Below, in pieces: positions 1,341 to 12,171 of a stretch of DNA of 12,171 bases; positions within the stretch are counted from its first letter, which is position 1, and every line of letters begins with the position of its first letter. The notes under the pieces were generated by a model. The model saw only the letters and a program-made list of their open reading frames with translations, had not been told where the DNA came from and searched no databases. The position numbers were made by a program, and so were the translations under genes. The stretch lies in the IMG/VR virus record IMGVR_UViG_3300029219_000167, one strand, 5' to 3'. The stretch comes from a virus. Taxonomy: Duplodnaviria > Heunggongvirae > Uroviricota > Caudoviricetes.

Positions 1341-1656
1341 TATAACAAACTTACTTTTTTATCATTTTTCCACTTTAACAACATTTTGCTCCACTTTTCC
1401 ACGACCAAACAAATTAAAATCTGGTTAAAATAACACGCAACACTATTCTTCTTCCTTGAGTCTGCCCGGAACTCGAAAAACAAACCGAGTTAAAGCCATT
1501 TTTCACAAAATCGATTTTGGGTCTCACCAAAATTACGGGGTTGCATACGCATTCGTTTATTTTCGAACGTGTACATACAAATATGCACAAAAATAATCAA
1601 AATTATTTTCTGAGATGCATTATGATATGAACACCAATTTCGTATAGAGTCTCACT

Positions 1657-2247
1657 ATGTCTCGAATTTTTGCTTACTGTCGGATATCAACGCTGGATCA
1701 GACCACCGAAAATCAACGCCGGGAAATCGAAAGTGCAGGTTTTAAAATCAAACCTCAGCAAATAATCGAAGAACACATTAGCGGCTCAGCAGCAACCAGT
1801 GAGCGTCCTGGTTTTAACCGGTTGCTTGCTCGCCTGAAATGTGGTGATCAATTGATTGTGACAAAACTGGATCGCCTTGGTTGTAATGCAATGGATATCA
1901 GGAAAACAGTGGAACAACTGACCGAAACAGGTATCAGAGTGCATTGCTTAGCATTGGGGGGCATTGACCTGACCAGTCCAACAGGAAAAATGATGATGCA
2001 CGTAATTTCAGCAGTCGCTGAATTTGAACGAGACCTTTTACTTGAACGCACTCATTCCGGGATAGTAAGAGCCCGCGGCGCAGGGAAACGTTTTGGTCGA
2101 CCACCTGTGTTAAATGAAGAACAGAAACAGGTGGTATTCGAACGAATTAAGTCAGGTGTAAGTATAAGTGCCATTGCCCGGGAATTCAAAACCTCGCGGC
2201 AAACCATTTTAAGAGCCAAAGCAAAACTTCAGACACCTGACATATAA
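1657..2247 (+). CDS. pinQ: Serine recombinase (resolvase/invertase family, PinQ/PinR-like), 196 aa
   Basis: N-terminal catalytic motif ...YCRISTLDQ... (nucleophilic Ser), resolvase core ([23 protein letters not shown]) and C-terminal HTH ([22 protein letters not shown]). Convergent with tfa; 97-bp gap to the tfa stop. Confidence 0.92.
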
Positions 2248-2344
2248 AAAATAATCTCGGTGTGAGATGCTTTACGTCTTCCAAGCCCCCTTCCTTGCCG
2301 TAAATGGAAAGATACATCTAATTATAGAATTTATATGTTTTACC

Positions 2345-2920
2345 CTACGGCAGTGCTGGCCATTCAATATCCTGTGCAGTTGATGTATCAACACGGTTCA
2401 GCAACACCCGATACTTTTTCCAGGCTTCCAGCAATGAGGTTTCTTCCTCCGTTGCGATTTCCAGATCTACAGCATCCTGAAGTGGCGCTATATGCTCACT
2501 GGCTACCTGCATCAGGCTGTTTTTTGTTTCTTCCGCCTCCCGGATCCGGAACAGTTTTTCTGCTTCCGTATCCTTCACCCAGACTGTACCGTTCCACTTC
2601 TGAAACTCCCCTTCCGGCGATAACCAGGTAACATTTTCCGGTAACGGACCGAGTTCAGAAATAAATAACGCGTCGCCGGAAGCCACGTCATAAACCATTT
2701 TACCCCGATGATCTTCAACGAGATGCCACGATGACTCATCACTGTTGAAAACAGCCACGAAGCCAGCCGGAATATCTGGCGGTGCAATATCGGTACTGTT
2801 TGCTGGCAGACCTGTATGAGGCGGAATATATGCATCACCTTCACCAATAAATTCATTAGTTCCGGCCAGCAGATTATAAATTTTTATGGTCCGTGGTTGT
2901 TCACTCATTCTGAATGCCAT
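2345..2920 (-). CDS. tfaQ: Tail fibre assembly protein (Tfa chaperone), 191 aa
   Basis: 191-aa ORF directly downstream of stf, as in lambda stf-tfa. Its ATG (2920..2918) shares one nucleotide with the stf TAA stop (TAATG overlap), suggesting translational coupling. Sequence consistent with TfaR/TfaQ of K-12 from memory. Confidence 0.88.
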
Positions 2921-5900
2921 TATGCAAGCCTCACAATATAGTTAAATGCGATGTTTTTGACGGTGTTTTCCGCGTTACCAGCAGCGTTAACGGTGATGGT
3001 GTGTCCATGTGAACCAATCGCAACGGAGTGCGTATGAGCACCAATACCCACAGTATGTGCGTGTGCACCTGCGCTTGCAGCAGTACCCGATACAGAGTGC
3101 GTATGAGCGCCTGCAGAAGAAGTGTTAACACTGTATTTAGAATAATCAGATGCTCCACTTCCCGGAGCACCACTGGAACCACCTGAAACAAATGTCATCG
3201 AATGGGTATGTGCACCGGCTGAAGCAGCCGTACCGCTAACACTATGGGTATGCGCCCCGGTGTTATTCGTGGATTTAGTGCCGTAATCAAACGACGATGT
3301 GGTTTTCGTCCCCAAATCCGTACTGGATGCGCTGGCGCTGTGGGTATGCGATTTAATGCCGTCCTGTTCCTGAGACAATACGGCCCGACCACTGGCAGGT
3401 TTGCCCTTAATCGTCCAGCCACGCATATCAGGGATCACGCCTGACGGATAAGCGGCTGCAAGTTTCGGGTAAGCAGATTTGTCAAAAGTCTGCCCCTGCA
3501 TCAGGGCATAACCAGACGGAACGGTATCTGATGGCCACGGGATTGGTGCGCCGACTGGGTAGCTTTCTGGTGGAAGATTTTTCGAGGTATAAACTTCTGC
3601 CCAGTCTTCCTCAAAACCATAACCGTCTCTTGAAGAACGGTAGAACAGACCACCATTTCTGTAATGCGCCTTCATCTGCAAGGTCCGGCAACTTCCGACT
3701 CCGGTATAGAAGTTAACCAGAATATAGCTGTCGCCAGAGCGGGTGACATTGTAAGCACCTGATTCGGCATTCCAGGGAACGCCACCATCCGCATCGGCAT
3801 ATGTATCCGTTGCCCTTCTGGCAAAAGCAGCCACATGCGCGGCGGTTAAAGTAATATCTCTGGAACCATCAAACTCAACACCAGAAACCAGTCTTGGCGT
3901 TTGCAGCTTTGTTGCTGTTAATGCATTACCGTTCAGACTTGCGGACAGTTTGGTTCCAATAACCAGTTCGCCGGTTGCGTTATAAATAGCAAACGGTCTT
4001 AATGTATTCCAGCCACCATAAACATCACCTTGATTGGTAAGCAGCAGGTAAGTTTTAGCGCCATCATTACGCCATAATGCACCATACTCCCCACCTATCA
4101 TTCGAATCTGATTACCACCACGCGCTACAATTTCGTCTGTGGCAAAAAGTTTTTTGCACGACAAATTATCGTTAACGATTAACGAATGAGACTCATAAAA
4201 ACCACGCCCACTCTTAAAATCAAGGATAACGTCCGCCGCGATACATTCAGTCGCTGGATTTGTTGCCCCAAACTTATAGGTCGTATCATTAACAACGAGA
4301 TCAGCACCAGGTGCGGATATTGACAGGCCATCTTCGATAAACGCAAAAACAGGGAAAGCAGCGCCATCAACATAGAACACAGAGCGCAAATCATCGCCCT
4401 TATTACTCATCATTATTGAGTGGATGGCTCGTTCATTGTTTTGATATTGCCAGAACATTCCATAAGCATAACGCCCCCTGTCAGTCCAGCCACCAGGCAT
4501 AACAAATCCGTTAAACTCGCAGTTATTCATCGGATCGCCTGCGGTTCGCGTTGCCGTGGTGATAATGACCCTTGATGCCAGTTCGCTTACTGAGCCAGCA
4601 GAACGCATAACAACAACAGGGTAATATTTTCCAGATGTTGCACCTGCAGGAGCGTTAACCCGCACATAACGCATACCACGCTTATCAGCAAAGTCTGTTT
4701 TACTGACCGCGTTAATGTTGTTCAGGAAGCGTCCCTTATCGGGTATATCAGCGCCGTTCTGGTCTTTCTGCAGACGTTTCTCTGCATTGTCATAGGCTGA
4801 TTTTACTGCCTTTGGCGTTGCCGCCAGCGTTTCAGACGTACTGTTGGTCGCACTGCTGAGCTGTACTATCCCCTTTTTCGTCGTGCTCGCATCCTCAAGC
4901 GCCACGGCGGATGCAATATCCTCTGCCCGTTTTGCCGCTGTCTCGGCGCGCGTTGCCGCGGATTCCGCCGTACTTTTGCTCTGTGCTGCCGCCGTCGCAC
5001 TGCCAGCTGCCTCTGTCGCCTTCGTGGATGCTGTCGTGGCGCTGCCCTTCGCTGCTGACGCCTGTCTGGTCGCCTCATCTTTTGAAGCAGACGCCGATGA
5101 TGCCGATGACGCCGCCGAACTGGCTGACGATGCGGCAGCCGTTTTTGAGGATTCTGCGCTGGTTTCCGACGCTTTCGCGTTCGTTTCGGATGTCTTCGCT
5201 GCGGAAGCAGAACTCGCTGCTGCGCTGGCCTGTTCAGTGGCTTCGCCAGCCTTCGTTGTGGCTGTTGAAGCGGATGATGCGGCGCTTTCTGCCGATTTTC
5301 CGGCGGCGGTGGCACTGGCTGAGGCCTGCCCGGCACTTGTTGACGCGGCGCTGGCAGATGATGCAGCCGCTGTTTTTGAGCCTGCCGCAGCTGAGGCGCT
5401 CTGTCCCGCTGCCGTCTCAGAAGACTTAGCGTTCGTCTCGGACGTTTTTGCCGCCTTCGCGGAATTTCCTGCCGCCGTTGCCGAGGAAGTTGCGCTACTG
5501 GCGCTCGAGGATGCGTTCGTTTCTGATGATTTCGCTGCCTCTTTTGAGGCCGCCGCATCCCGGGCTGAGGTGGCAGCTTCTGACGCTTTCGTGGTCGCGG
5601 TGGATGCAGAAGTGGCTGCTGATTGTTGTGACGCTGCGGCATTCGTTTCTGACGTTTTCGCGGCACTGGCACTGGTAGCTGCCGCGCTTTTTGAGGACTC
5701 TGCAGCAGCAGCACTTTTCGATGCTTCACTGACCTTTGTTGATGCCGTTCCTGCGCTGGAAGACGCTGACTGAGCCGACGACGCGGCCTGTCCGGCTGAC
5801 GTGCTGGCTGCGCGTGCTGAGCCTGCAGCATCAGTCGCATGGGTTGCCGCCTCACGGGCTGATGTGCCGGCATCGCCGGCTGACTTCTTCGCGGCTGCCG

Positions 5901-6276
5901 TGTTCTGTGCCACCGCGGACGCGTTACGCGCCACCTCTTCCACCATCAGCTCAAAACGGCGCAGTGCCTCTGGCCGGGCATCATCCTCCGTCATGGCACC
6001 GAGAAAATCATTCAGCGTACCGGGTCGGGAGTCTTCATACACGGTGATGGTCCCGGCATGTGACGGCGGGAATCCTTCCACCAACAGAATAACGCTGTAC
6101 TGACCGTACTCAACGTCCATGCTGTAACGCCCGGCTTCATCCGGATTTTCTGAGGCCACCGTGTTCACCACCACCGTGGTGCTGTTACGTTTTGCTTTCA
6201 GCTGGATTGTGCAGTTCTGTACCGGTTTTCCTGTGCCGTCTTTCAGTACACCTGAAATCTTTACTGCCATATTCAC
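2920..6276 (-). CDS. stfQ: Side tail fibre protein (Stf, lambda-Stf/StfR-like), about 1116-1118 aa
   Basis: N-terminus (MN)[20 protein letters not shown]... matches lambda Stf; long Ala/Ser/Thr-rich periodic region (repeated AAKTSETNA units); C-terminal HxH repeats (GAHTHS x3, GAHAHT, SHGHT) and ...[18 protein letters not shown] end, as in lambda Stf. The ORF track uses GTG 6276; the lambda-like ATG is at 6270 (MAVKIS...). Preceded by GGGG/GTG purine-rich RBS. Confidence 0.9.
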
Positions 6277-6280
6277 CCCA

Positions 6281-6308
6281 CAAAAAAGCCCGCCTGAACC
6301 GGCGGGCT
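6281..6308 (-). terminator. Rho-independent terminator downstream of lom
   Basis: Minus strand reads AGCCCGCC-GGTTCA-GGCGGGCT followed by TTTTTTG: perfect 8-bp GC-rich stem plus T-run, 27 nt after the lom stop, immediately before the stf RBS. Confidence 0.8.
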
Positions 6309-6334
6309 GTCATAACACTGTGTTACCTGGCTAA

Positions 6335-6934
6335 TCAGAATTTATAACCGACACCCACGATGAAACCGTCAGTGCGCCAGTCACCACTGCCGGAGCCTTC
6401 ATAAGCAATATCAATGGCCACGGATTCGGTCGGGTTAAACTGCACGCCAGCCCCCCACGCCAGAGACGTGTTGCTGTGGCGACCGTCATCACTTCCGGTC
6501 AGCACATCGTGCGTTTTCCCCTTGTTGTCAGTTACGCGGAGATAATCCCCGAAGAAAGTCGACACACGGCTGTAAGCCACACCCGCCATCGCATACACGC
6601 TGAACCATTCATTCACGCGCACAGACGGCCCCGCCATTACGCTGAACCAGCGGTTACGCACGGAATCTTCATGCCAGCGGGTATCGCTGTAATGCGTTTT
6701 TTGCTCATCTTCAGCGTTGGCATAACTGAATGACGTAATCAGCCCCAGCGTGTCCGTAAACTCATAACGGTATTTCACGTTAATCCCGTTCAGATTATCG
6801 CTGCCGGGAGCGTTCGTACGGGCATTAAGATACCCTGCGCTCAGTGTGGCCTGCTGCTCAGACGCCCATGCAGGCGCACCGGATACGGCCAGACAGATGG
6901 CTGTGGACAAAATGGCTGCACAAACTTTACGCAT
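6335..6934 (-). CDS. lom: Lom-family outer membrane protein (Ail/Lom/OmpX/PagC beta-barrel), 199 aa
   Basis: Signal peptide [24 protein letters not shown], aromatic-rich beta-barrel pattern, C-terminal ...[10 protein letters not shown] ending in Phe; sits between J and stf as in lambda. GAGAGG Shine-Dalgarno 6 nt upstream of the ATG. Confidence 0.9.
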
Positions 6935-6956: not shown

Positions 6957-6982
6957 ATAAAAAAGGCGCCATTTCTGGCGCC
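6957..6982 (-). terminator. Rho-independent terminator downstream of the Nu1'-'J ORF
   Basis: Minus strand reads GGCGCC-AGAAAT-GGCGCC followed by TTTTTTATTG; located between the J-fragment stop (7002-7004) and the lom RBS. Confidence 0.8.
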
Positions 6983-7001
6983 CGTATATGGGTTATAAAA
7001 T

Positions 7002-9458
7002 TCAGCTGATACTGATGCCTGCGGTGGCTTTCTTCATCACCACAACCAGCAAATCGCTGATACTTGCTGTGGGATACCAGTCATTTACCAGCCATGCTGA
7101 CACCGAAAACTCCAGCGTCATGTGGCCGTGACCAGCTGGCATATCAATAACACCACTGTAAATCAGCGTATTATCCAGCGCGGTACGGTTATAAATTTCA
7201 GCACCATTTTTCTTCACTATCAGGCGGCATGAGGAGTAAATATCAGTATGCTCTCTCTCATGTTTAGCACCGCTGAATGCCACCGCCGGAATAACAATCT
7301 GCCGGTCAAACGGCTGATCGTCATAAATCCTGACGGTAATGGTCCCTGATGGCCACCGCTCCGGTGCCCGGGAGTCCCGCGGGAAAGCCTTACCCACTGT
7401 TTTGACAATATCGCCTTCAATCTGGTTGGCTGACAGTTTCCCTTTAATCTGACAGTTTTCATTTATCGTAACGTTGTTGAGCGTCCCGGCGTTCGCATTC
7501 ACACTGCCACTGATATCTGCATTTTTAGCGGTCAGCTTTCCGTCCGGTGTCAGGGAAAATGCAGGAGGATTACCGCCGCTGGTAATGGTGGGAGCCGTCA
7601 GATATTTCAGGAACACTTCATTCATGAATATCTGATCACCCTGACCAACAAACATCGGTTTTGTGTTGCCATTTGCAGGATTAATCATCGCAATCCTGTC
7701 TGCCGCCAGCAGCACCTGACTCTGCATGCCGTCGGGGGTGTTCTCAATACCGGCACCGATACCCGCAATATAAAGGCGTCCGTCCTGCATCTGCTGCAGC
7801 TTCACAGCCCACATGCTGTTCAGATTATTATTTGTATCAACCTGAACCTTCTGTATCTGCTGGATCGCTGCACTCTGGTCTTCCAGTTTCTTATTGACGG
7901 TCTGTGTGATTTCATTGCTGACATCCGTAATGGATGTCCTGATTTCAGCCAGGTCAGGCGCAAGCTGACCGTTATCAATCTGCGTCCACAGCTCCTGAGC
8001 CAGATGGGTTTTCCCTATCTCGCCTTTGAAAAAATCCAGATAGCCGGATGCGTCATCACTCGGCTGACCAACAGCCTCCACGAATGCCGATTTGCCAACG
8101 GTGTTCACACTGCGAACGTAAAAATAATAATTATGGCCCGGCCTGATATTGATACTGGCGGCTATCCAGTACAGCGCCGTGCCAAGATAGCGTGCTGTGG
8201 TTTCAACCTGCCTGATATCCGCAATCCGCTTTTCCGAGAACCAGAACTCAAACTGTACCGTCGGATCATAAACCGCAAGATGCGGCGTGGCGGTTATCTG
8301 AAAATAGCCCGGCGTCAGCTCAATCCGCGACGGCGCTGCCGGTGCGGCAATCCGGAACGATACCGACGCCGGATCGCCCTGCTGCCCCCACGCATTTACC
8401 GCCCGGACTGTCAGCCTGTAGTTCCCCAGAGCCAGTTGTGTGAAGCGGTAAGTGGTTTCCGTCGTCCGGGCCGTGCTGACCAGCCGCTCACTGCCGTCAT
8501 CCGCTGCCACGGTCAGGCGAAGCAGGAAGCTCACGCCCTTCACCACCTTCGGCGTGTCCCAGCGGGCCAGCACCTGGTATTCCCCGCTGTCTGCAGTGAC
8601 TTCTGCGGTCAGGTGCTGCACCGCTGGCGGCGTGACACCGTTCACCGTGCCACTCTGTTCGCCGTCAAAGTGCGCCCCGTTATCCACGATGACCTCTTTT
8701 TCCGGCACATGCTGCACGGCGGTGATGGCATACGTGCCGTCGTCGTTCTCACGGATACTCACGCAGCGGAACAGTCGCTGGCGCAGCCTCGGCAGCTTCA
8801 GCCCCCATACGCTGTATTCAGCAACACCGTCAGGAACACGGCTCACTTTCACCTTCACGCCGTCGGTGACGGACTGAACCTCCACGCTGACCGGATTGCC
8901 ACTTCCGTCAACCAGGCTTATCAGCGTGGTACCGGAGGATGGCAGCCAGGATATCAGTTCATCCAGCGCGGCTGCTTTGTTCATGGCTTTGATGATATCC
9001 CGTTTCAGGAAATCAACATGTCGGTTTTCCAGTTCCGGAAAACGCCGCTGCACCGACAGGGGGATCCCGTCGAGAATACTGGCAATTTCACCTGCGATCC
9101 GCGACAGCACGAAAGTACAGAATGCGGTTTCCACCACTTCAGCGGAGTCTCTGGCATTCTTCAGTTCCTGTGCGTCGGCCTGCGCACGCGTAAGTCGATG
9201 GCGTTCGTACTCAATAGTCCCTGGCTGGAGATCTGCCTCGCTGGCCTGCCGCAGTTCTTCAACTTCCCGGCGCAGCTTTTCGTTCTCAATTTCAGCATCC
9301 CTTTCGGCATACCATCTTATAACGGCGGCAGAGTCATAAAGCACCTCATTACCCTTGCCACCGCCTCGCAGAACGGGCATTCCCTGTTCCTGCCAGTTCT
9401 GAATGGTACGGATACTCGCACCGAAAATGTCAGCCAGCTGCTTTTTGTTGACTTCCAT
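7002..9458 (-). CDS. Chimeric deletion-fusion ORF, 818 aa: N-terminal ~169 aa of terminase small subunit Nu1 (nohQ-like) fused in frame to C-terminal ~650 aa of tail-tip protein J
   Basis: Residues 1-169 ([46 protein letters not shown]...[13 protein letters not shown]) are near-identical to lambda Nu1 as I recall it, including the winged-HTH DNA-binding domain. From about plus position 8951 the frame continues as ...[49 protein letters not shown]... matching the lambda J C-terminal half through ...[16 protein letters not shown]. Junction is in frame, so roughly 19 kb of head and tail genes (Nu1 3' end, A through I, J 5' half) are absent. Confidence 0.85.
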
Positions 9459-9480
9459 TGTTCATTCCACGGCCAAAAAC

Positions 9481-9665
9481 AGAGAAAGGAAACGACAGAG
9501 GCCCAAAAGCTCGTTTTCAGCACCTGTCGTTTCCTTTCTTTTCAGGGGGTATTTTAAATAAAAACATTAAGTTACAACGAAGAAGAACGGAAACGCCTTA
9601 AACCGGAAAATTTTCATAAATAGCGAAAACCCGCGAGGTCGCCGCCCCGTAACCTGTCGGATCGC
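9481..9665 (-). other. Lambda-type cos site: cosB (R1, R2, R3 terminase-binding repeats with AT-rich IHF-site region), cosN and cosQ
   Basis: Reverse complement of 9636-9647 is GGGCGGCGACCT, the lambda 12-nt cohesive end. R-site-like repeats at 9481-9498 (AGAGAAAGGAAACGACAG), 9524-9538 (CTGTCGTTTCCTTTC, inverted) and 9580-9598 (GAAGAAGAACGGAAACGCC). 9648-9663 reverse-complements to GATCCGACAGGTTACG, the lambda right-end (cosQ-side) sequence. Spacing to the Nu1 start matches lambda. Confidence 0.85.
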
Positions 9666-9846
9666 CGGAAAGGACCCGCAAAATGATAATAATTATCATC
9701 TGCATGTCACAACGTGCATCTACGCCATCAAACCACGTCAAATAATCAATTATGACGCAGATATCGTATTAATTGATCTGCATCAACTTAACGTAAAAAC
9801 AACTTCAGACAATACAAATCAGCGACACTGAATACGGGACAACCTC

Positions 9847-10080
9847 ATGTCAACGAAGAACAGAACCCGCAGAACAACAACCCGCAACATCCGCTTTCCT
9901 AACCAAATGATTGAACAAATTAACATCGCTCTTGAGCAAAAAGGGTCCGGGAATTTCTCAGCCTGGGTCATTGAAGCCTGCCGCCGGAGACTGTGCTCAG
10001 AAAAAAGAGTTTCTTCTGAAGCAAACAAAGAAAAGAGTGACATTACTGAATTGCTCAGAAAACAGGTCAGACCAGATTGA
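9847..10080 (+). CDS. ynfO: YnfO/YlcI-family small prophage protein, 77 aa, possible ribbon-helix-helix DNA-binding fold
   Basis: MSTKNRTRRTTTRNIRFPNQMIEQINIALEQKGSGNFSAWVIEACRRRL...: basic N-terminus, then a strand-helix-helix pattern typical of Arc/CopG-like proteins. Same position relative to cos/Nu1 as K-12 ynfO in Qin. The RHH assignment is inference. Confidence 0.7.
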   Translation: MSTKNRTRRTTTRNIRFPNQMIEQINIALEQKGSGNFSAWVIEACRRRLCSEKRVSSEANKEKSDITELLRKQVRPD

Positions 10081-10137
10081 AGCAATTTAGATAATCGTGC
10101 AGACTACGCCCCCTCATATCACATGGAAGGTTTATCT

Positions 10138-10548
10138 ATGGATCAGGTAGTCATTTTTAAACAAATATTTGATAAAGTTCGAAACGATTTAAACTATCAA
10201 TGGTTTTATTCTGAGCTAAAACGTCACAATGTCTCACATTACATTTACTATTTAGCCACAGAGAATGTTCATATTGTATTAAAAAATGATAATACAGTGT
10301 TATTAAAGGGCCTAAAAAACATTGTGTCTGTCAAATTTTCAAAGGATAGGCATCTTATAGAAACGACCTCTAATAAGCTGAAATCCAGAGAGATCACATT
10401 TCAGGAATACAGAAGAAACCTTGCTAAAGCAGGAGTTTTTCGGTGGGTTACAAATATCCACGAACAAAAAAGATATTACTATACCTTTGATAATTCATTA
10501 CTATTTACTGAAAGCATCCAGAAAACTACACAGATCTTACCACGCTAA
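10138..10548 (+). CDS. ydfO: YdfO-family protein (DUF1398-like), 136 aa from the preferred start
   Basis: ORF-track start at 10123 (MEGLSMDQ...) lacks a Shine-Dalgarno; ATG 10138 is preceded by GGAAGG (10126-10131, 6-nt spacer). Protein [40 protein letters not shown]... recalled as Qin prophage YdfO. Confidence 0.75.
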
Positions 10549-10699
10549 ACCATAACGTCCGGCTTCTCTCACTCCTGAGCCGGACTGCATTGGTTTAATA
10601 AAAACCATCAACAATTGTGATTTAGATATTCGGAACCATTCAAATATAACAAAACCCCGTAAAAACGAGGTTTATGGATAAATTTTATTATTGAATACA

Positions 10700-10873
10700 T
10701 CAGATTAAATTAATCTTGACATCATAGCTTTCAAGACCCGTCATTTTTTCCCGTGCGGTAAACTGAATACTGGTAACTTCTTTCCCGGTCTTTTTCTTAA
10801 GTTCAATAATTTTTTTTGTTATATATTCAGAAATATCTGCTTCTGCTTTTGTTTTTAAGTTTTCAATATTCAT
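10700..10873 (-). CDS. gnsB: GnsB-like small protein, 57 aa (GnsA/GnsB family)
   Basis: Not in the ORF track (under size cutoff). Minus-strand translation MNIENLKTKAEADISEYITKKIIELKKKTGKEVTSIQFTAREKMTGLESYDVKINLI; AAGAGGAA Shine-Dalgarno 5 nt upstream of the second of two tandem ATGs (10873). Resembles K-12 GnsA/GnsB from memory. Confidence 0.7.
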   Translation of the reverse strand: MNIENLKTKAEADISEYITKKIIELKKKTGKEVTSIQFTAREKMTGLESYDVKINLI

Positions 10874-11044
10874 CATTTCCTCTTTTAGTCTGTTATGACT
10901 TTCCAGTTACACAGTAAGTCGATTATATGGTGCAAACGTGTAAAAGATAAGATGAAACATCGCAATAATCAACATACGATAGTCTAAATTTTACACAAAC
11001 AGACAAAGAGAATTTTCCTGAATTATCAATGCAATAGCATCAAA

Positions 11045-11275
11045 TCAACTCAAGAGCCTTATTGCTGCTTCCAGAATTTCTTCTGAAGTAACATGTCGAT
11101 CCGCGGCTACATAAATGACTTTATGATCTCCGGTCAGAGATGGAAACCCTGCGGCCATTACAGTAAGGTGTGTTTTTTCGCCATTTGGATATTCACGCAT
11201 GATGGTGTTAACTCCAGTCATCGCTGGCACTACCACTGCTGGTTCAGAGTTAAAAAAAACTATGATTTTTTTCAT
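11045..11275 (-). CDS. ynfN: YnfN-family prophage protein; 76 aa if started at MKKIIVFF, 51-aa core if started at 11200
   Basis: C-terminal 51 aa (MREYPNGEKTHLTVMAAGFPSLTGDHKVIYVAADRHVTSEEILEAAIRLLS) correspond to K-12 YnfN as I recall it. The frame stays open upstream through MKKIIVFFNSEPAVVVPAMTGVNTI (ATG 11275) and further to 11317. No strong Shine-Dalgarno at any candidate start, so the start is uncertain. Confidence 0.55.
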   Translation of the reverse strand: MKKIIVFFNSEPAVVVPAMTGVNTIMREYPNGEKTHLTVMAAGFPSLTGDHKVIYVAADRHVTSEEILEAAIRLLS

Positions 11276-11320
11276 GATGTTACCGTAGTATGTGAGTATC
11301 CATCGAATAGACACCAAGCC

Positions 11321-11345
11321 AAAAAGCTCCCGAAGGAGCCTTCAT
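11321..11345 (-). terminator. Rho-independent terminator (UUCG-tetraloop hairpin plus U-run) on the minus strand
   Basis: Minus strand reads GGCUCC-UUCG-GGAGCU followed by UUUUU: 6-bp stem (one G-U pair), stable UUCG loop, T-run. Lies about 200 nt downstream of the cspI stop and just upstream of the ynfN ORF. Confidence 0.6.
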
Positions 11346-11546
11346 TTTCACTTTTTTAAATCCAACGACAGACGGCTGGCATTTAAGTATTGTGAAATAT
11401 TATCAAATGTAATCATCATTGATTTACAAAAGATACATTTTGCCCCGAAAGGATTCATGTCAGAAACATCAAAAGATGATGTTCTATACTGGGAACCATG
11501 ACAACACGGGCATCTAAAGTGAATATGGTTTGTAATATTGTCTACC

Positions 11547-11759
11547 TCAAAGCGCCACTACATGAACAGCGGCAGGACCTTTAGGTCCGTTCTCAATACC
11601 AAATTCAACTTCCTGATTCTCAGTTAATGTTTTGAAATCGTTGCTCTGAATTGCTGAGAAATGGACAAACACATCTTTGCTGCCATCTTTCGGCGTGATG
11701 AAACCAAAACCTTTTTCAGGGTTAAACCATTTTACTAAACCAGTCATTTTGTTAGACAT
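11547..11759 (-). CDS. cspI: Cold-shock protein CspI (CspA family, S1-like cold-shock domain), 70 aa
   Basis: [70 protein letters not shown] carries the RNP1 (KGFGFI) and RNP2 (VFVHF) motifs; AAGG Shine-Dalgarno about 7 nt upstream of ATG 11759. Confidence 0.92.
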
Positions 11760-12094: not shown

Positions 12095-12171
12095 GGTAAT
12101 GACTCCAACTTATTGGTAGTGTTTTATGTTCAGATAATGCCCGATGACTTTGTCATGCAGCTCCACCGATT
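12095..12171 (-). mobile_element. insB: IS1 terminus (inverted repeat plus 3' end of insB), element continues beyond the window
   Basis: 12095-12171 matches the IS1 end GGTAATGACTCCAACTTATTG(A/G)TAGTGTTTTATGTTCAGATAATGCCCGATGACTTTGTCATGCAGCTCCACCGATT from memory. Minus-strand translation gives ...SVELHDKVIGHYLNIKHYQ* (InsB C-terminus, stop at 12110-12112). Confidence 0.85.

What the first reader, a model, noticed from the sequence alone, without database searches (positions are those of the whole stretch)
7002..9458. In-frame Nu1'-'J fusion: a precise deletion of the whole morphogenetic block leaves one 818-aa chimeric ORF
The Nu1 DNA-binding N-terminal domain (about 169 aa) is joined in frame to the C-terminal half of tail-tip protein J, with the junction near plus position 8951 (...AALDELI|[16 protein letters not shown]...). 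The whole ORF is open, has a clean terminator, and sits between an intact cos site and intact lom/stf/tfa genes. That pattern fits either very recent decay or retention of a domesticated product. K-12 Qin, as I recall it, is more decayed here (stfQ and nohQ are pseudogenes), so this may be an intermediate or alternative deletion state.
Basis: partly seen in the sequence, partly recalled or inferred. Interest (0 to 1): 0.7.

Follow-up and report, generated by a model that had tools for sequence, protein, structure and literature searches.

The report
Nu1–J fusion from prophage deletion
The 818-codon gene is real, but it is a young, rare by-product of a large deletion in the decaying Qin prophage of E. 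coli; the more notable point is that its left breakpoint lies on a nucleotide-precise deletion hotspot in the terminase gene Nu1 that dozens of independent deletions share.

Summary
Window 7002-9458 (-) is one open 818-aa ORF. It consists of lambda Nu1 codons 1-169 (99% identical to lambda nt 191-697), 5 junction bases (TCCTG), and then the J homologue from codon 513 to its stop. It sits in the Qin cryptic prophage between an intact cos site and open lom, stf, tfa and pinQ genes.

Domestication is not supported. The allele is absent from 5,426 complete E. coli genomes. It occurs as a single protein sequence on 7-14 metagenome or SRA contigs, with no nucleotide differences in the ORF. Its J part is 100% identical to a longer J remnant in another Qin. 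The best reading is a recent neutral deletion that came out in frame by chance (about 1 in 3).

K-12, strain 17MR471 and this window carry three independent Nu1-anchored deletions in the same locus.

The unexpected result is the Nu1 breakpoint (...GAACTGATA|CCGGGG, lambda nt 697). It is a one-sided deletion hotspot. In two unbiased contig samples, 8 of 11 and 6 of 18 distinct breakpoints fall within 10 bases. About 30 distinct protein tails start there, including W, B, E, FI, V, J, lom, stf, tfa and int. Its cause is unresolved.

The parts
9636..9647 (-). cosN, the 12-base cohesive-end sequence GGGCGGCGACCT. The flanking cosQ and cosB (9459-9700) are nearly identical to lambda.
   Evidence: window 10009-9648 matches lambda 48141-48502 at 95%, and window 9647-8952 matches lambda 1-697 at 98.3%.
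8952..9458 (-). Nu1' : codons 1-169 of the lambda-type small terminase subunit. This covers the winged-HTH DNA-binding domain and the oligomerisation domain. The last 12 residues of the TerL-binding tail are missing.
   Evidence: domain layout from PMC9026076.
8947..8951 (-). Junction filler TCCTG, which comes from neither Nu1 nor J. Together with the next 4 bases (TCCTGGCTG) it is identical to the portal-gene sequence at the Nu1(697)::B(3466) junction of E. coli ML35.
7002..8946 (-). 'J : the tail-tip protein J homologue from codon 513 to the stop. It contains two Ig-like domains, the tip fibre and the receptor-binding domain. It is 100% identical over 1873 nt to the J remnant of Qin in E. 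coli 17MR471.
6964..6983 (-). Terminator-like hairpin (8-bp stem, 6 G-C pairs, followed by a T run) between the fusion stop codon and lom.
6335..6934 (-). lom (199 aa, Ail/Lom), open.
   Evidence: (Pfam on the 99.99% identical contig L005).
2920..6276 (-). stf side tail fibre (1118 aa), open.
2345..2920 (-). tfa tail fibre assembly protein (191 aa), open.
1657..2247 (+). pinQ serine recombinase (196 aa). No inverted repeats of an invertible segment were found nearby.
9847..10548 (+). ynfO (9847-10080) and ydfO (10123-10548). These Qin genes lie upstream of cos on the strand opposite to the fusion.
12095..12171 (.). End of an IS1 copy. The window ends inside it, upstream of the cspI-gnsB block. 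It separates the fusion from the Qin lysis and late-promoter region in this haplotype.
   Evidence: window 12171-12095 matches the IS1 copies in L001 and L002. L005 lacks the IS1 and L006 has it.

Best explanation
The ORF is a by-product of illegitimate, microhomology-type deletion in the Qin cryptic prophage of an E. coli lineage.

Shown: about 16.3 kb (gene A through the first 512 codons of J) has been removed. The left end of the deletion lies at a recurrent breakpoint in Nu1, after ...GAACTGATA at lambda nt 697, 3 nt before the Shine-Dalgarno sequence of gene A. The join happens to be in frame (prior chance 1 in 3). The allele is young and rare.

Inferred: the 5-9 junction bases identical to a Nu1::portal junction seen elsewhere suggest two steps. 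The first would be a hotspot deletion from Nu1(697) to portal nt 3466. The second would be a deletion from portal nt ~3476 to J nt 17040, across a GCTG microhomology.

The product would carry a cosB-binding, self-associating Nu1 body without its TerL-binding tail, joined to a J fragment that lacks the hub domains and all partner tail genes. It therefore cannot act as terminase or build a tail tip. It is most likely inert, and poorly expressed, because an IS1 and oppositely oriented genes lie between it and the late promoter.

For the hotspot, the junction signature fits a top-strand 3' end near lambda nt 700-702. That end would anneal to an imperfect ~10-bp microhomology downstream (CnGrTA|wCGG) and be trimmed back to the TA before extension. 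What creates that end is not known.
For: Identity and breakpoints.

Qin context.

Rarity and youth: no contiguous junction in 5,426 complete genomes; a one-member cluster on 7 contigs with no NCBI isolate; 14 contigs read; 0 differences in the ORF among 8 contigs, while stf and ynfO carry recombination patches; the J part is 100% identical to 17MR471 Qin.

Independent deletions in the same locus.

Hotspot, metagenome sample: the search pattern lay 33 nt upstream of the break. 8 distinct junctions fall at 695-704, against 3 true deletions in the next 330 nt.

Hotspot, IMG/VR sample: the pattern lay at the Nu1 start. 6 of 18 distinct junctions fall at 697-703 out of ~1470 nt scanned, where about 0.1 would be expected.

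Hotspot, protein survey: 30 of 52 distinct tails begin at codons 168-170.

All mapped partners lie downstream on the same strand.

Partner-site logo: T at -2 in 21/23 and A at -1 in 19/23; at +1, A or T in 20/23 and G in 1/23; C at +2 in 14/23 and G at +4 in 15/23; background frequencies from +5.

Most hotspot alleles are singletons, as expected from high mutational input.

Filler matches the ML35 Nu1::portal junction.
Against: In-frame fusions may be over-represented at the hotspot (13-15 of 26 mapped), which could hint at selection. However, tails shorter than 12 aa were excluded, and that exclusion removes mostly out-of-frame cases.

The two-step origin rests on a 5-9 nt match. No intermediate was found in a Qin context: ML35 carries its junction in DLP12, and its Nu1 region is only 98.3% identical to the window.

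No expression data were available.

No enzyme or structure explains the hotspot. There is no significant hairpin at 697 (z=0.1). Other CCGG and GAACTG sites are not hot.
Confidence: 0.8

Rival explanations
1. Truncated Nu1 is selected. A TerS that still binds cosB and oligomerises but cannot recruit TerL would sit next to a functional cos. It could interfere with, or redirect, packaging by incoming lambda-type phages, much as PICI Rpp proteins do. Under this view the clustering of break points at codon 169 reflects selection for exactly this truncation. The J tail of this allele would be irrelevant cargo.
For: The break removes only the last 12 residues of the TerL-binding tail and keeps the DNA-binding and oligomerisation domains. 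TerS lacking its C-terminus binds TerL poorly, and Rpp proteins are TerS-like wHTH proteins without that tail, encoded next to a cos site (PMC9026076). cos is intact in these remnants. In-frame fusions may be in excess.
Against: The peak is nucleotide-sharp (697 +/- 3), although break points anywhere between about codon 141 and 181 should give the same phenotype. Breaks further upstream in Nu1 (237-623) and inside A (880, 913, 956-960) occur at ordinary per-base rates. So neither keeping Nu1 nor removing the A start is strongly required. Most hotspot alleles are rare singletons with arbitrary tails. The partner sites show a base-pairing signature, which selection does not predict.
Confidence: 0.12
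2. The 818-aa chimera itself is a domesticated functional protein, for example a J receptor-binding module kept for exchange with incoming phages or for a surface-related function.
For: The long ORF is open, a terminator-like hairpin follows it, and the neighbouring lom, stf and tfa are intact. dN/dS of the J half against a live phage is low, at 0.074.
Against: The allele is absent from 5,426 complete genomes. It is a single sequence with no variation. The low dN/dS was accumulated before the deletion. The J fragment lacks its N-terminal 512 residues and all tail assembly partners. There is no signal peptide or secretion route. Sister alleles at the same breakpoint are out of frame and annotated as pseudogenes.
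Confidence: 0.05
3. The junction is an assembly chimera caused by repeated prophage sequence.
For: The window looks like a short-read contig that ends in IS1. E. coli genomes carry several Nu1 and J copies (median 3 places per genome).
Against: The identical junction and flanks are recovered from at least 7 independent samples with different assemblers, on contigs up to 12.6 kb. Finished genomes show analogous junctions at the same Nu1 position.
Confidence: 0.02

Closest known systems
nohA (nohQ)-stfQ junction of Qin in E. coli K-12 MG1655 (b1548/b1547)
   Same: It is the same chromosomal locus and the same kind of event. A lambda-type Nu1 gene next to cos is truncated near its 3' end and joined to tail-fibre DNA, with the head and tail genes deleted.
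   Different: K-12 breaks at lambda nt 719 (after ...SEY) rather than 697. It joins stfQ out of frame to give a 189-aa NohA, and it has lost J and lom. The window keeps 647 codons of J, plus lom and a full stf. The two deletions are independent.
Nu1'-'J junctions of Qin in E. coli 17MR471 and of DLP12 in E. coli B (REL606, BL21)
   Same: The Nu1 breakpoint is the same (lambda 697-699) and the partner gene is the same (J). The 17MR471 J DNA is 100% identical to the window's J part.
   Different: The J break points differ (codon 61 and codon 211, against 513 here). Both are out of frame, so RefSeq annotates a 192-203 aa 'terminase small subunit' followed by a J pseudogene. BL21 carries a further internal J deletion.
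Other Nu1(1-169) fusion proteins in public databases, e.g. the 244-aa and 234-aa Nu1-Lom proteins annotated as 'Ail/Lom family outer membrane beta-barrel protein', and the 223/224-aa Nu1-Tfa proteins
   Same: They are in-frame chimeras created at exactly ...AALDELI| by deletion of the morphogenetic block.
   Different: The partner genes and positions differ. Some of these alleles are much commoner than the Nu1-J(513) allele of this window.
Rpp proteins of Gram-negative PICIs (TerS-like wHTH proteins lacking the TerL-binding tail, encoded next to a cos site)
   Same: The architecture is superficially alike: a cos site followed by a TerS-type DNA-binding protein without a working TerL-binding C-terminus (PMC9026076).
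   Different: This is a resemblance only. Rpp is a distinct, conserved family with its own oligomerisation domain and an island context. The sequence here is lambda Nu1 itself (99% identical), truncated by deletion. No interference function was tested.

Membership tests
Lambda-type small terminase subunit (gpNu1/TerS, Pfam PF07471) | N-terminal winged-HTH DNA-binding domain and central oligomerisation domain | tested here: met
   PF07471 matches residues 1-164 over model positions 1-164 of 164, E=1e-99. PDB 1J9I covers 1-68 and 6HN7 covers 1-98. DNA identity to lambda is 99%.
Lambda-type small terminase subunit (gpNu1/TerS, Pfam PF07471) | Complete C-terminal TerL-binding tail (last 30-40 residues) and an adjacent large-subunit gene A | tested here: not met
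   Residues 170-181 (PGLLSEYIEQSG) are replaced by J sequence. Gene A is deleted. Domain definition from PMC9026076.
Tail tip / central fibre protein J (TipJ) | C-terminal Ig-like domains, tip fibre and receptor-binding domain | tested here: met
   PF24421, PF24489, PF09327 and PF12421 all score above their cut-offs. Lambda gpJ chains 8IYK, 8XCJ and 9WCA match.
Tail tip / central fibre protein J (TipJ) | N-terminal hub part (about 512 residues) and neighbouring tail genes H, M, L, K, I needed for assembly | tested here: not met
   J homology starts at lambda nt 17040, codon 513. There is no DNA between Nu1 and that point apart from 5 bases.
Qin cryptic prophage of E. coli | Position and flanking genes: ydfJ side, ydfK, pinQ, tfaQ ... 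cos, ynfO, ydfO, gnsB, cspI | tested here: met
   The window is 99.2-99.7% identical to Qin of 17MR471 and 98.5-99.4% identical to K-12 Qin on both flanks.
Domesticated prophage gene (kept by purifying selection in the host) | Presence across divergent host lineages, with substitutions that spare the reading frame and the protein | tested here: not met
   0 of 5,426 complete genomes carry it. The cluster has one member. There are zero differences in the ORF among the carrying contigs.
DNA-invertase (Pin/Gin/Cin) quasi-site deletion | Crossover at the central dinucleotide of a 26-bp site (...ACC NN GGTT...), with partner sites sharing both half-sites | tested here: not met
   The Nu1 site resembles such a site (TGAACTGATACC GG GGTTGCTGAGTG; the consensus is from my memory). 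However, junctions lie 3 nt to the left of the would-be centre, and partner sites show no GGTT half-site. The hotspot also occurs in DLP12, which has no pin gene.

The most novel reading that the evidence does not exclude
Lambda-type Nu1 contains a nucleotide-precise, one-sided mutational hotspot for large deletions, at lambda nt ~697-702, just before the ribosome-binding site of gene A. A recurrent DNA end or replication stall at this site would repeatedly prime microhomology-mediated joins to variable downstream sites. This would make it a main route by which lambdoid prophages of E. coli lose their head and tail genes while keeping cos and Nu1'. Candidate causes include a cosN-like half-site (TACCG|GGG against TTACG|GGG) nicked by terminase, but this is untested. 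I found no description of such a hotspot in the searchable literature.
Probability: 0.5. Interest if true: 0.6.

Novelty: new member of a known kind. Interest (0 to 1): 0.33.

Why it matters
The fusion itself matters little. It is one more deletion allele of a well-known cryptic prophage, and it warns against reading long open chimeric ORFs in prophage remnants as domesticated genes.

The shared breakpoint could matter more. If it is a true mutational hotspot, it would explain why so many E. coli prophage remnants keep cos plus a truncated Nu1 (the noh genes). It would give a concrete, testable mechanism for the first step of prophage 'grounding'. It would also account for the many odd 'terminase small subunit-Lom/Tfa/J' hybrid proteins in databases.

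Because functional cos sites are retained, these remnants also remain substrates for packaging by, and recombination with, incoming lambdoid phages.

Tried and rejected
Explanations for the hotspot that I tested and set aside:

1. CCGG-specific cutting. The two hot positions in the 3' third of Nu1 (nt 611 and 698) coincide with its only CCGG sites there. However, the CCGG sites at 379, 760 and 783 had no events. No partner has a perfect CCGG.

2. A GAACTG+3 rule. The breaks at codons 144 and 169 both lie 3 nt after GAACTG. The copies at 250, 392 and 482 are not hot.

3. A hairpin at 697. None is present (z=0.1). The weaker hotspot at codons 139-144 does lie in a 7-bp-stem hairpin, GTTTTCC-GGAACT-GGAAAAC (z=-2.1).

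4. A Pin/Din invertase quasi-site, a lambda Int secondary att site, a Chi-like GCTGGATG, a type I-E protospacer with an ATG PAM, FokI-type or type III restriction sites, and IS10, Tn3 or IS91 pseudo-ends. I judged each by eye against consensus sequences recalled from memory. Each puts the cut at the wrong position or in the wrong polarity.

5. A mosaic boundary. Undeleted copies run collinear with lambda past nt 697 (199 loci).

6. A selection window (keep Nu1, remove the A start). Breaks upstream in Nu1 and inside A occur at ordinary rates.

7. A homing-endonuclease or IS insertion at the site. None was seen downstream of the unmapped junctions.

Other steps that led nowhere:
- dN/dS was computed but is uninformative for the time since the fusion formed.
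- The REL606 J comparison in that script failed on a saturated dS estimate.
- No invertible segment was found near pinQ.
- Literature searches found no description of the hotspot.
Full report
WHAT IS THERE

Window 7002-9458 (minus strand) is a single 818-codon ORF. Pfam places a full-length Phage_Nu1 match on residues 1-164 (E=1e-99). It also places the four C-terminal gpJ modules (Ig_J, Ig_J_second, Phage_Tail_Tip, Ig_GpJ_C) on residues 269-818. Solved lambda TerS and gpJ chains match the same two parts.

At the DNA level, fusion nt 1-507 equal lambda 191-697 (99.0%). Fusion nt 513 onward equals lambda J from nt 17040 (93.8%, then more diverged toward the receptor-binding end). The protein is therefore Nu1 1-169, two junction codons (S, W), and then J from codon 513 to the stop. 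The equivalent of lambda 698-17039 is absent.

Five bases (TCCTG, window 8947-8951) belong to neither parent. cosN and cosB are intact upstream. A terminator-like hairpin follows the stop codon. lom, stf (1118 aa), tfa and pinQ are open.

WHERE IT IS

The flanks are Qin:
- On one side lie ydfK, pinQ and tfaQ.
- On the other lie ynfO, ydfO, gnsB and cspI.
- They are 99.2-99.7% identical to Qin of E. coli 17MR471 and 98.5-99.4% identical to K-12 Qin.

The window ends inside an IS1 copy (12095-12171). This IS1 separates the fusion from the lysis and late-promoter side in this haplotype.

HOW COMMON AND HOW OLD

No complete E. coli genome out of 5,426 has the junction as one contiguous piece. The protein is a one-member cluster known only from metagenome and SRA assemblies. 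It was read on 14 contigs from at least 7 samples, which excludes an assembly chimera.

Among eight such contigs the ORF has zero nucleotide differences. Differences elsewhere are confined to patches in stf and ynfO. The J part is 100% identical over 1873 nt to the longer J remnant of Qin in 17MR471. The allele is therefore young and rare.

dN/dS of the J half against the live phage PhiR55_1 is 0.074 (66.8 synonymous and 17.2 nonsynonymous differences). The Nu1 half has only 3-5 differences from its relatives. These numbers describe the phage past, not the fusion. There is no evidence for domestication.

RELATION TO OTHER QIN AND DLP12 STATES

- K-12 nohA runs to lambda nt 719 and then joins stfQ out of frame.
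- 17MR471 Qin joins Nu1 nt 697 to J nt 15685 (codon 61), out of frame.
- E. coli B DLP12 joins Nu1 nt 699 to J nt 16135 (codon 211), out of frame. BL21 has a further internal J deletion.

None of these can be derived from another. The same locus has therefore lost its morphogenetic genes several times independently. One in-frame outcome among three Nu1::J junctions is what chance predicts.

THE UNEXPECTED PART: A ONE-SIDED DELETION HOTSPOT

Three different J break points share the same Nu1 break point to within 2 nt. I tested whether this is general.

1. Protein survey. A search with Nu1 1-169 returned many clusters that diverge right after ...AALDELI. Sorting the listed 120 proteins by where they leave lambda Nu1 gives the following counts of distinct tails per codon:

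| Nu1 codon | Distinct tails |
|---|---|
| 139 | 5 |
| 140 | 4 |
| 141 | 1 |
| 144 | 3 |
| 165 | 3 |
| 168 | 4 |
| 169 | 22 |
| 170 | 4 |
| 173 | 2 |
| 176 | 2 |

That query ended at residue 169, so I then took two samples whose ascertainment does not depend on the break.

2. Metagenome sample. An exact-pattern scan used a 30-mer at lambda 635-664 (120 loci).
   - 91 loci continue collinear with lambda.
   - Distinct breaks fall at 695, 697 (four different partners), 699, 700 and 704.
   - Only three true deletions occur in the next 330 nt: 719 (the K-12 type), 913 and 956. The apparent breaks at 731, 832 and 974 are local divergence.

3. IMG/VR sample. A scan used a 28-mer at the Nu1 start (120 loci). 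It gave 18 distinct breaks over about 1470 nt. Six of them fall at 697-703, where about 0.1 would be expected.

In total I hold 17 distinct DNA junctions at this spot.

All mapped partners lie downstream on the same strand. They include A, W, B, E, FI, V, I, J (at least 5 sites), lom (3 sites), stf, tfa and an integrase. These are therefore deletions with a fixed left end and a variable right end. Most alleles are singletons, which is what high mutational input predicts.

SIGNATURE AT THE JUNCTIONS

I aligned 23 native partner sites on the junction.

| Position relative to the junction | Partner bases (of 23) | Nu1 base at that position |
|---|---|---|
| -6 | C in 13 | C |
| -4 | G in 16 | G |
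| -2 | T in 21 | T |
| -1 | A in 19 | A |
| +1 | A or T in 20, G in 1 | C |
| +2 | C in 14 | C |
| +3 | G in 11 | G |
| +4 | G in 15 | G |
| +5 onward | background | - |

The native Nu1 sequence around the junction is CTGATA|CCGG. The partners thus resemble the Nu1 site on both sides of the junction, with one tolerated mismatch at +1. The worst mismatch (C.C) is avoided, and the product always carries the partner's base at +1.

This is inference, but it fits the following sequence of events. A Nu1-side top-strand 3' end lies near nt 700-702. It anneals to an imperfect ~10-bp microhomology. It is trimmed back to the matched TA and then extended.

What produces that end is unknown. The site lies 3 nt upstream of the GGGG Shine-Dalgarno sequence of gene A (GTG start at 711), and it loosely resembles the left half of cosN. 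The explanations I tested and rejected are listed in Tried and rejected.

A selection-only explanation is weak. Breaks upstream in Nu1 and inside A occur at ordinary rates, and the peak is only a few bases wide. A contribution from selection for a TerL-binding-deficient TerS next to cos cannot be excluded (domain data in PMC9026076). A possible excess of in-frame fusions (13-15 of 26 mapped) is compatible with it, although my filter on tail length biases that count.

ORIGIN OF THIS PARTICULAR JUNCTION

The native J sequence upstream of the join (...GAAATCAC|GCTGCC) lacks the TA rule. The filler plus the next four bases (TCCTGGCTG) is identical to the portal sequence at the Nu1(697)::B(3466) junction of E. 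coli ML35. Only 2 complete genomes carry that junction.

The simplest reading has two steps. The first is a hotspot deletion to the portal gene. The second is a deletion from portal nt ~3476 to J nt 17040 across GCTG. This is an inference from a 5-9 nt match, and no intermediate in a Qin context was found.

WHAT THE PRODUCT COULD DO

It keeps the cosB-binding and oligomerisation parts of TerS but lacks the last 12 residues of the TerL-binding tail, and gene A is absent. The J part lacks the N-terminal 512 residues and all tail partners.

It cannot function as terminase or as a tail tip. Its expression would depend on read-through from a late promoter that lies beyond an IS1 and beyond oppositely oriented genes. 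I consider it inert (confidence about 0.8). A small chance remains that the Nu1 part, like any Nu1(1-169) allele, interferes with packaging by incoming lambda-type phages.

NOVELTY AND VERDICT

The fusion is a new allele of a known kind of object, a deletion derivative of Qin, and in itself it is ordinary.

The Nu1 hotspot is robust in three data sets. I found no description of it in the searchable literature. Whether it is mutational or partly selective, and what causes it, remains open.

Noticed in passing
window 8947-8960 (minus strand; lambda nt ~690-703); also L001:8495-8512, L002:8495-8512, L015:6085-6110 and 13 further loci: There is a one-sided deletion hotspot in Nu1 at ...GAACTGATA|CCGGGG. 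I hold 17 distinct DNA junctions and about 30 distinct protein tails that start here. All join to downstream, same-strand prophage DNA. Partner sites share the pattern CnGrTA|wCGG. The cause is unknown.
   Followed up: yes
L004 (lambda) 605-624; equivalent to window ~9025-9044 (minus strand): A second, weaker cluster of deletion end points lies at Nu1 codons 139-141 and 144 (13 distinct tails). It falls inside a 7-bp-stem hairpin, GTTTTCC-GGAACT-GGAAAAC (DNA fold z=-2.1). A further small cluster of 3 tails lies at codon 165, right after the CAGC-CGC-GCTG mini-hairpin.
   Followed up: partly
window 8943-8951 against L015:6100-6108 (E. coli ML35, DLP12): The junction bases TCCTGGCTG are identical to the portal-gene sequence at the ML35 Nu1(697)::B(3466) junction. 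This suggests the window's junction arose in two steps. Only 2 of 5,426 complete genomes carry the ML35 junction.
   Followed up: partly
window 12095-12171: The window ends in the terminal 77 bases of an IS1 copy inserted upstream of the cspI block. The otherwise identical contig L005 lacks it, and L006 has it. The fusion allele therefore exists in at least two haplotypes.
   Followed up: partly
L006 against window 2920-6276 (stf); L010 against window 9847-10080 (ynfO): All 23 differences between L006 and the window fall inside stf. All 7 differences in L010 fall inside ynfO. These are recombination patches in otherwise identical haplotypes, so these prophage remnants still exchange segments.
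   Followed up: no
proteins P0003-P0062; tails mapped: Among junctions at Nu1 codons 168-170 with a mapped partner, at least 13-15 of 26 are in frame with the partner gene, against 1 in 3 expected. The count is biased by my exclusion of tails shorter than 12 aa. Several of these fusions are annotated in NCBI as 'Ail/Lom family outer membrane beta-barrel protein', 'head-tail joining protein' or 'DNA-packaging protein FI'.
   Followed up: partly
L013 (K-12 Qin) 5799-6368; L001 (17MR471 Qin) 8001-11752; window 7002-9458: Three mutually incompatible Nu1-anchored deletions occur at the same chromosomal locus. The Qin morphogenetic region was therefore either retained until recently in several lineages or repeatedly restored by recombination with incoming phages.
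   Followed up: partly
L004 (lambda) ~880; loci L201 and L221: Two different deletion partners share a left end at lambda nt 880 inside gene A (ACTGCCCTTTCA|). This may be another minor recurrent breakpoint.
   Followed up: no
window 1500-6400: pinQ is intact. No inverted repeats of 16 nt or more flank the stf/tfa region, so there is no recognisable invertible tail-fibre segment for the invertase to act on.
   Followed up: partly
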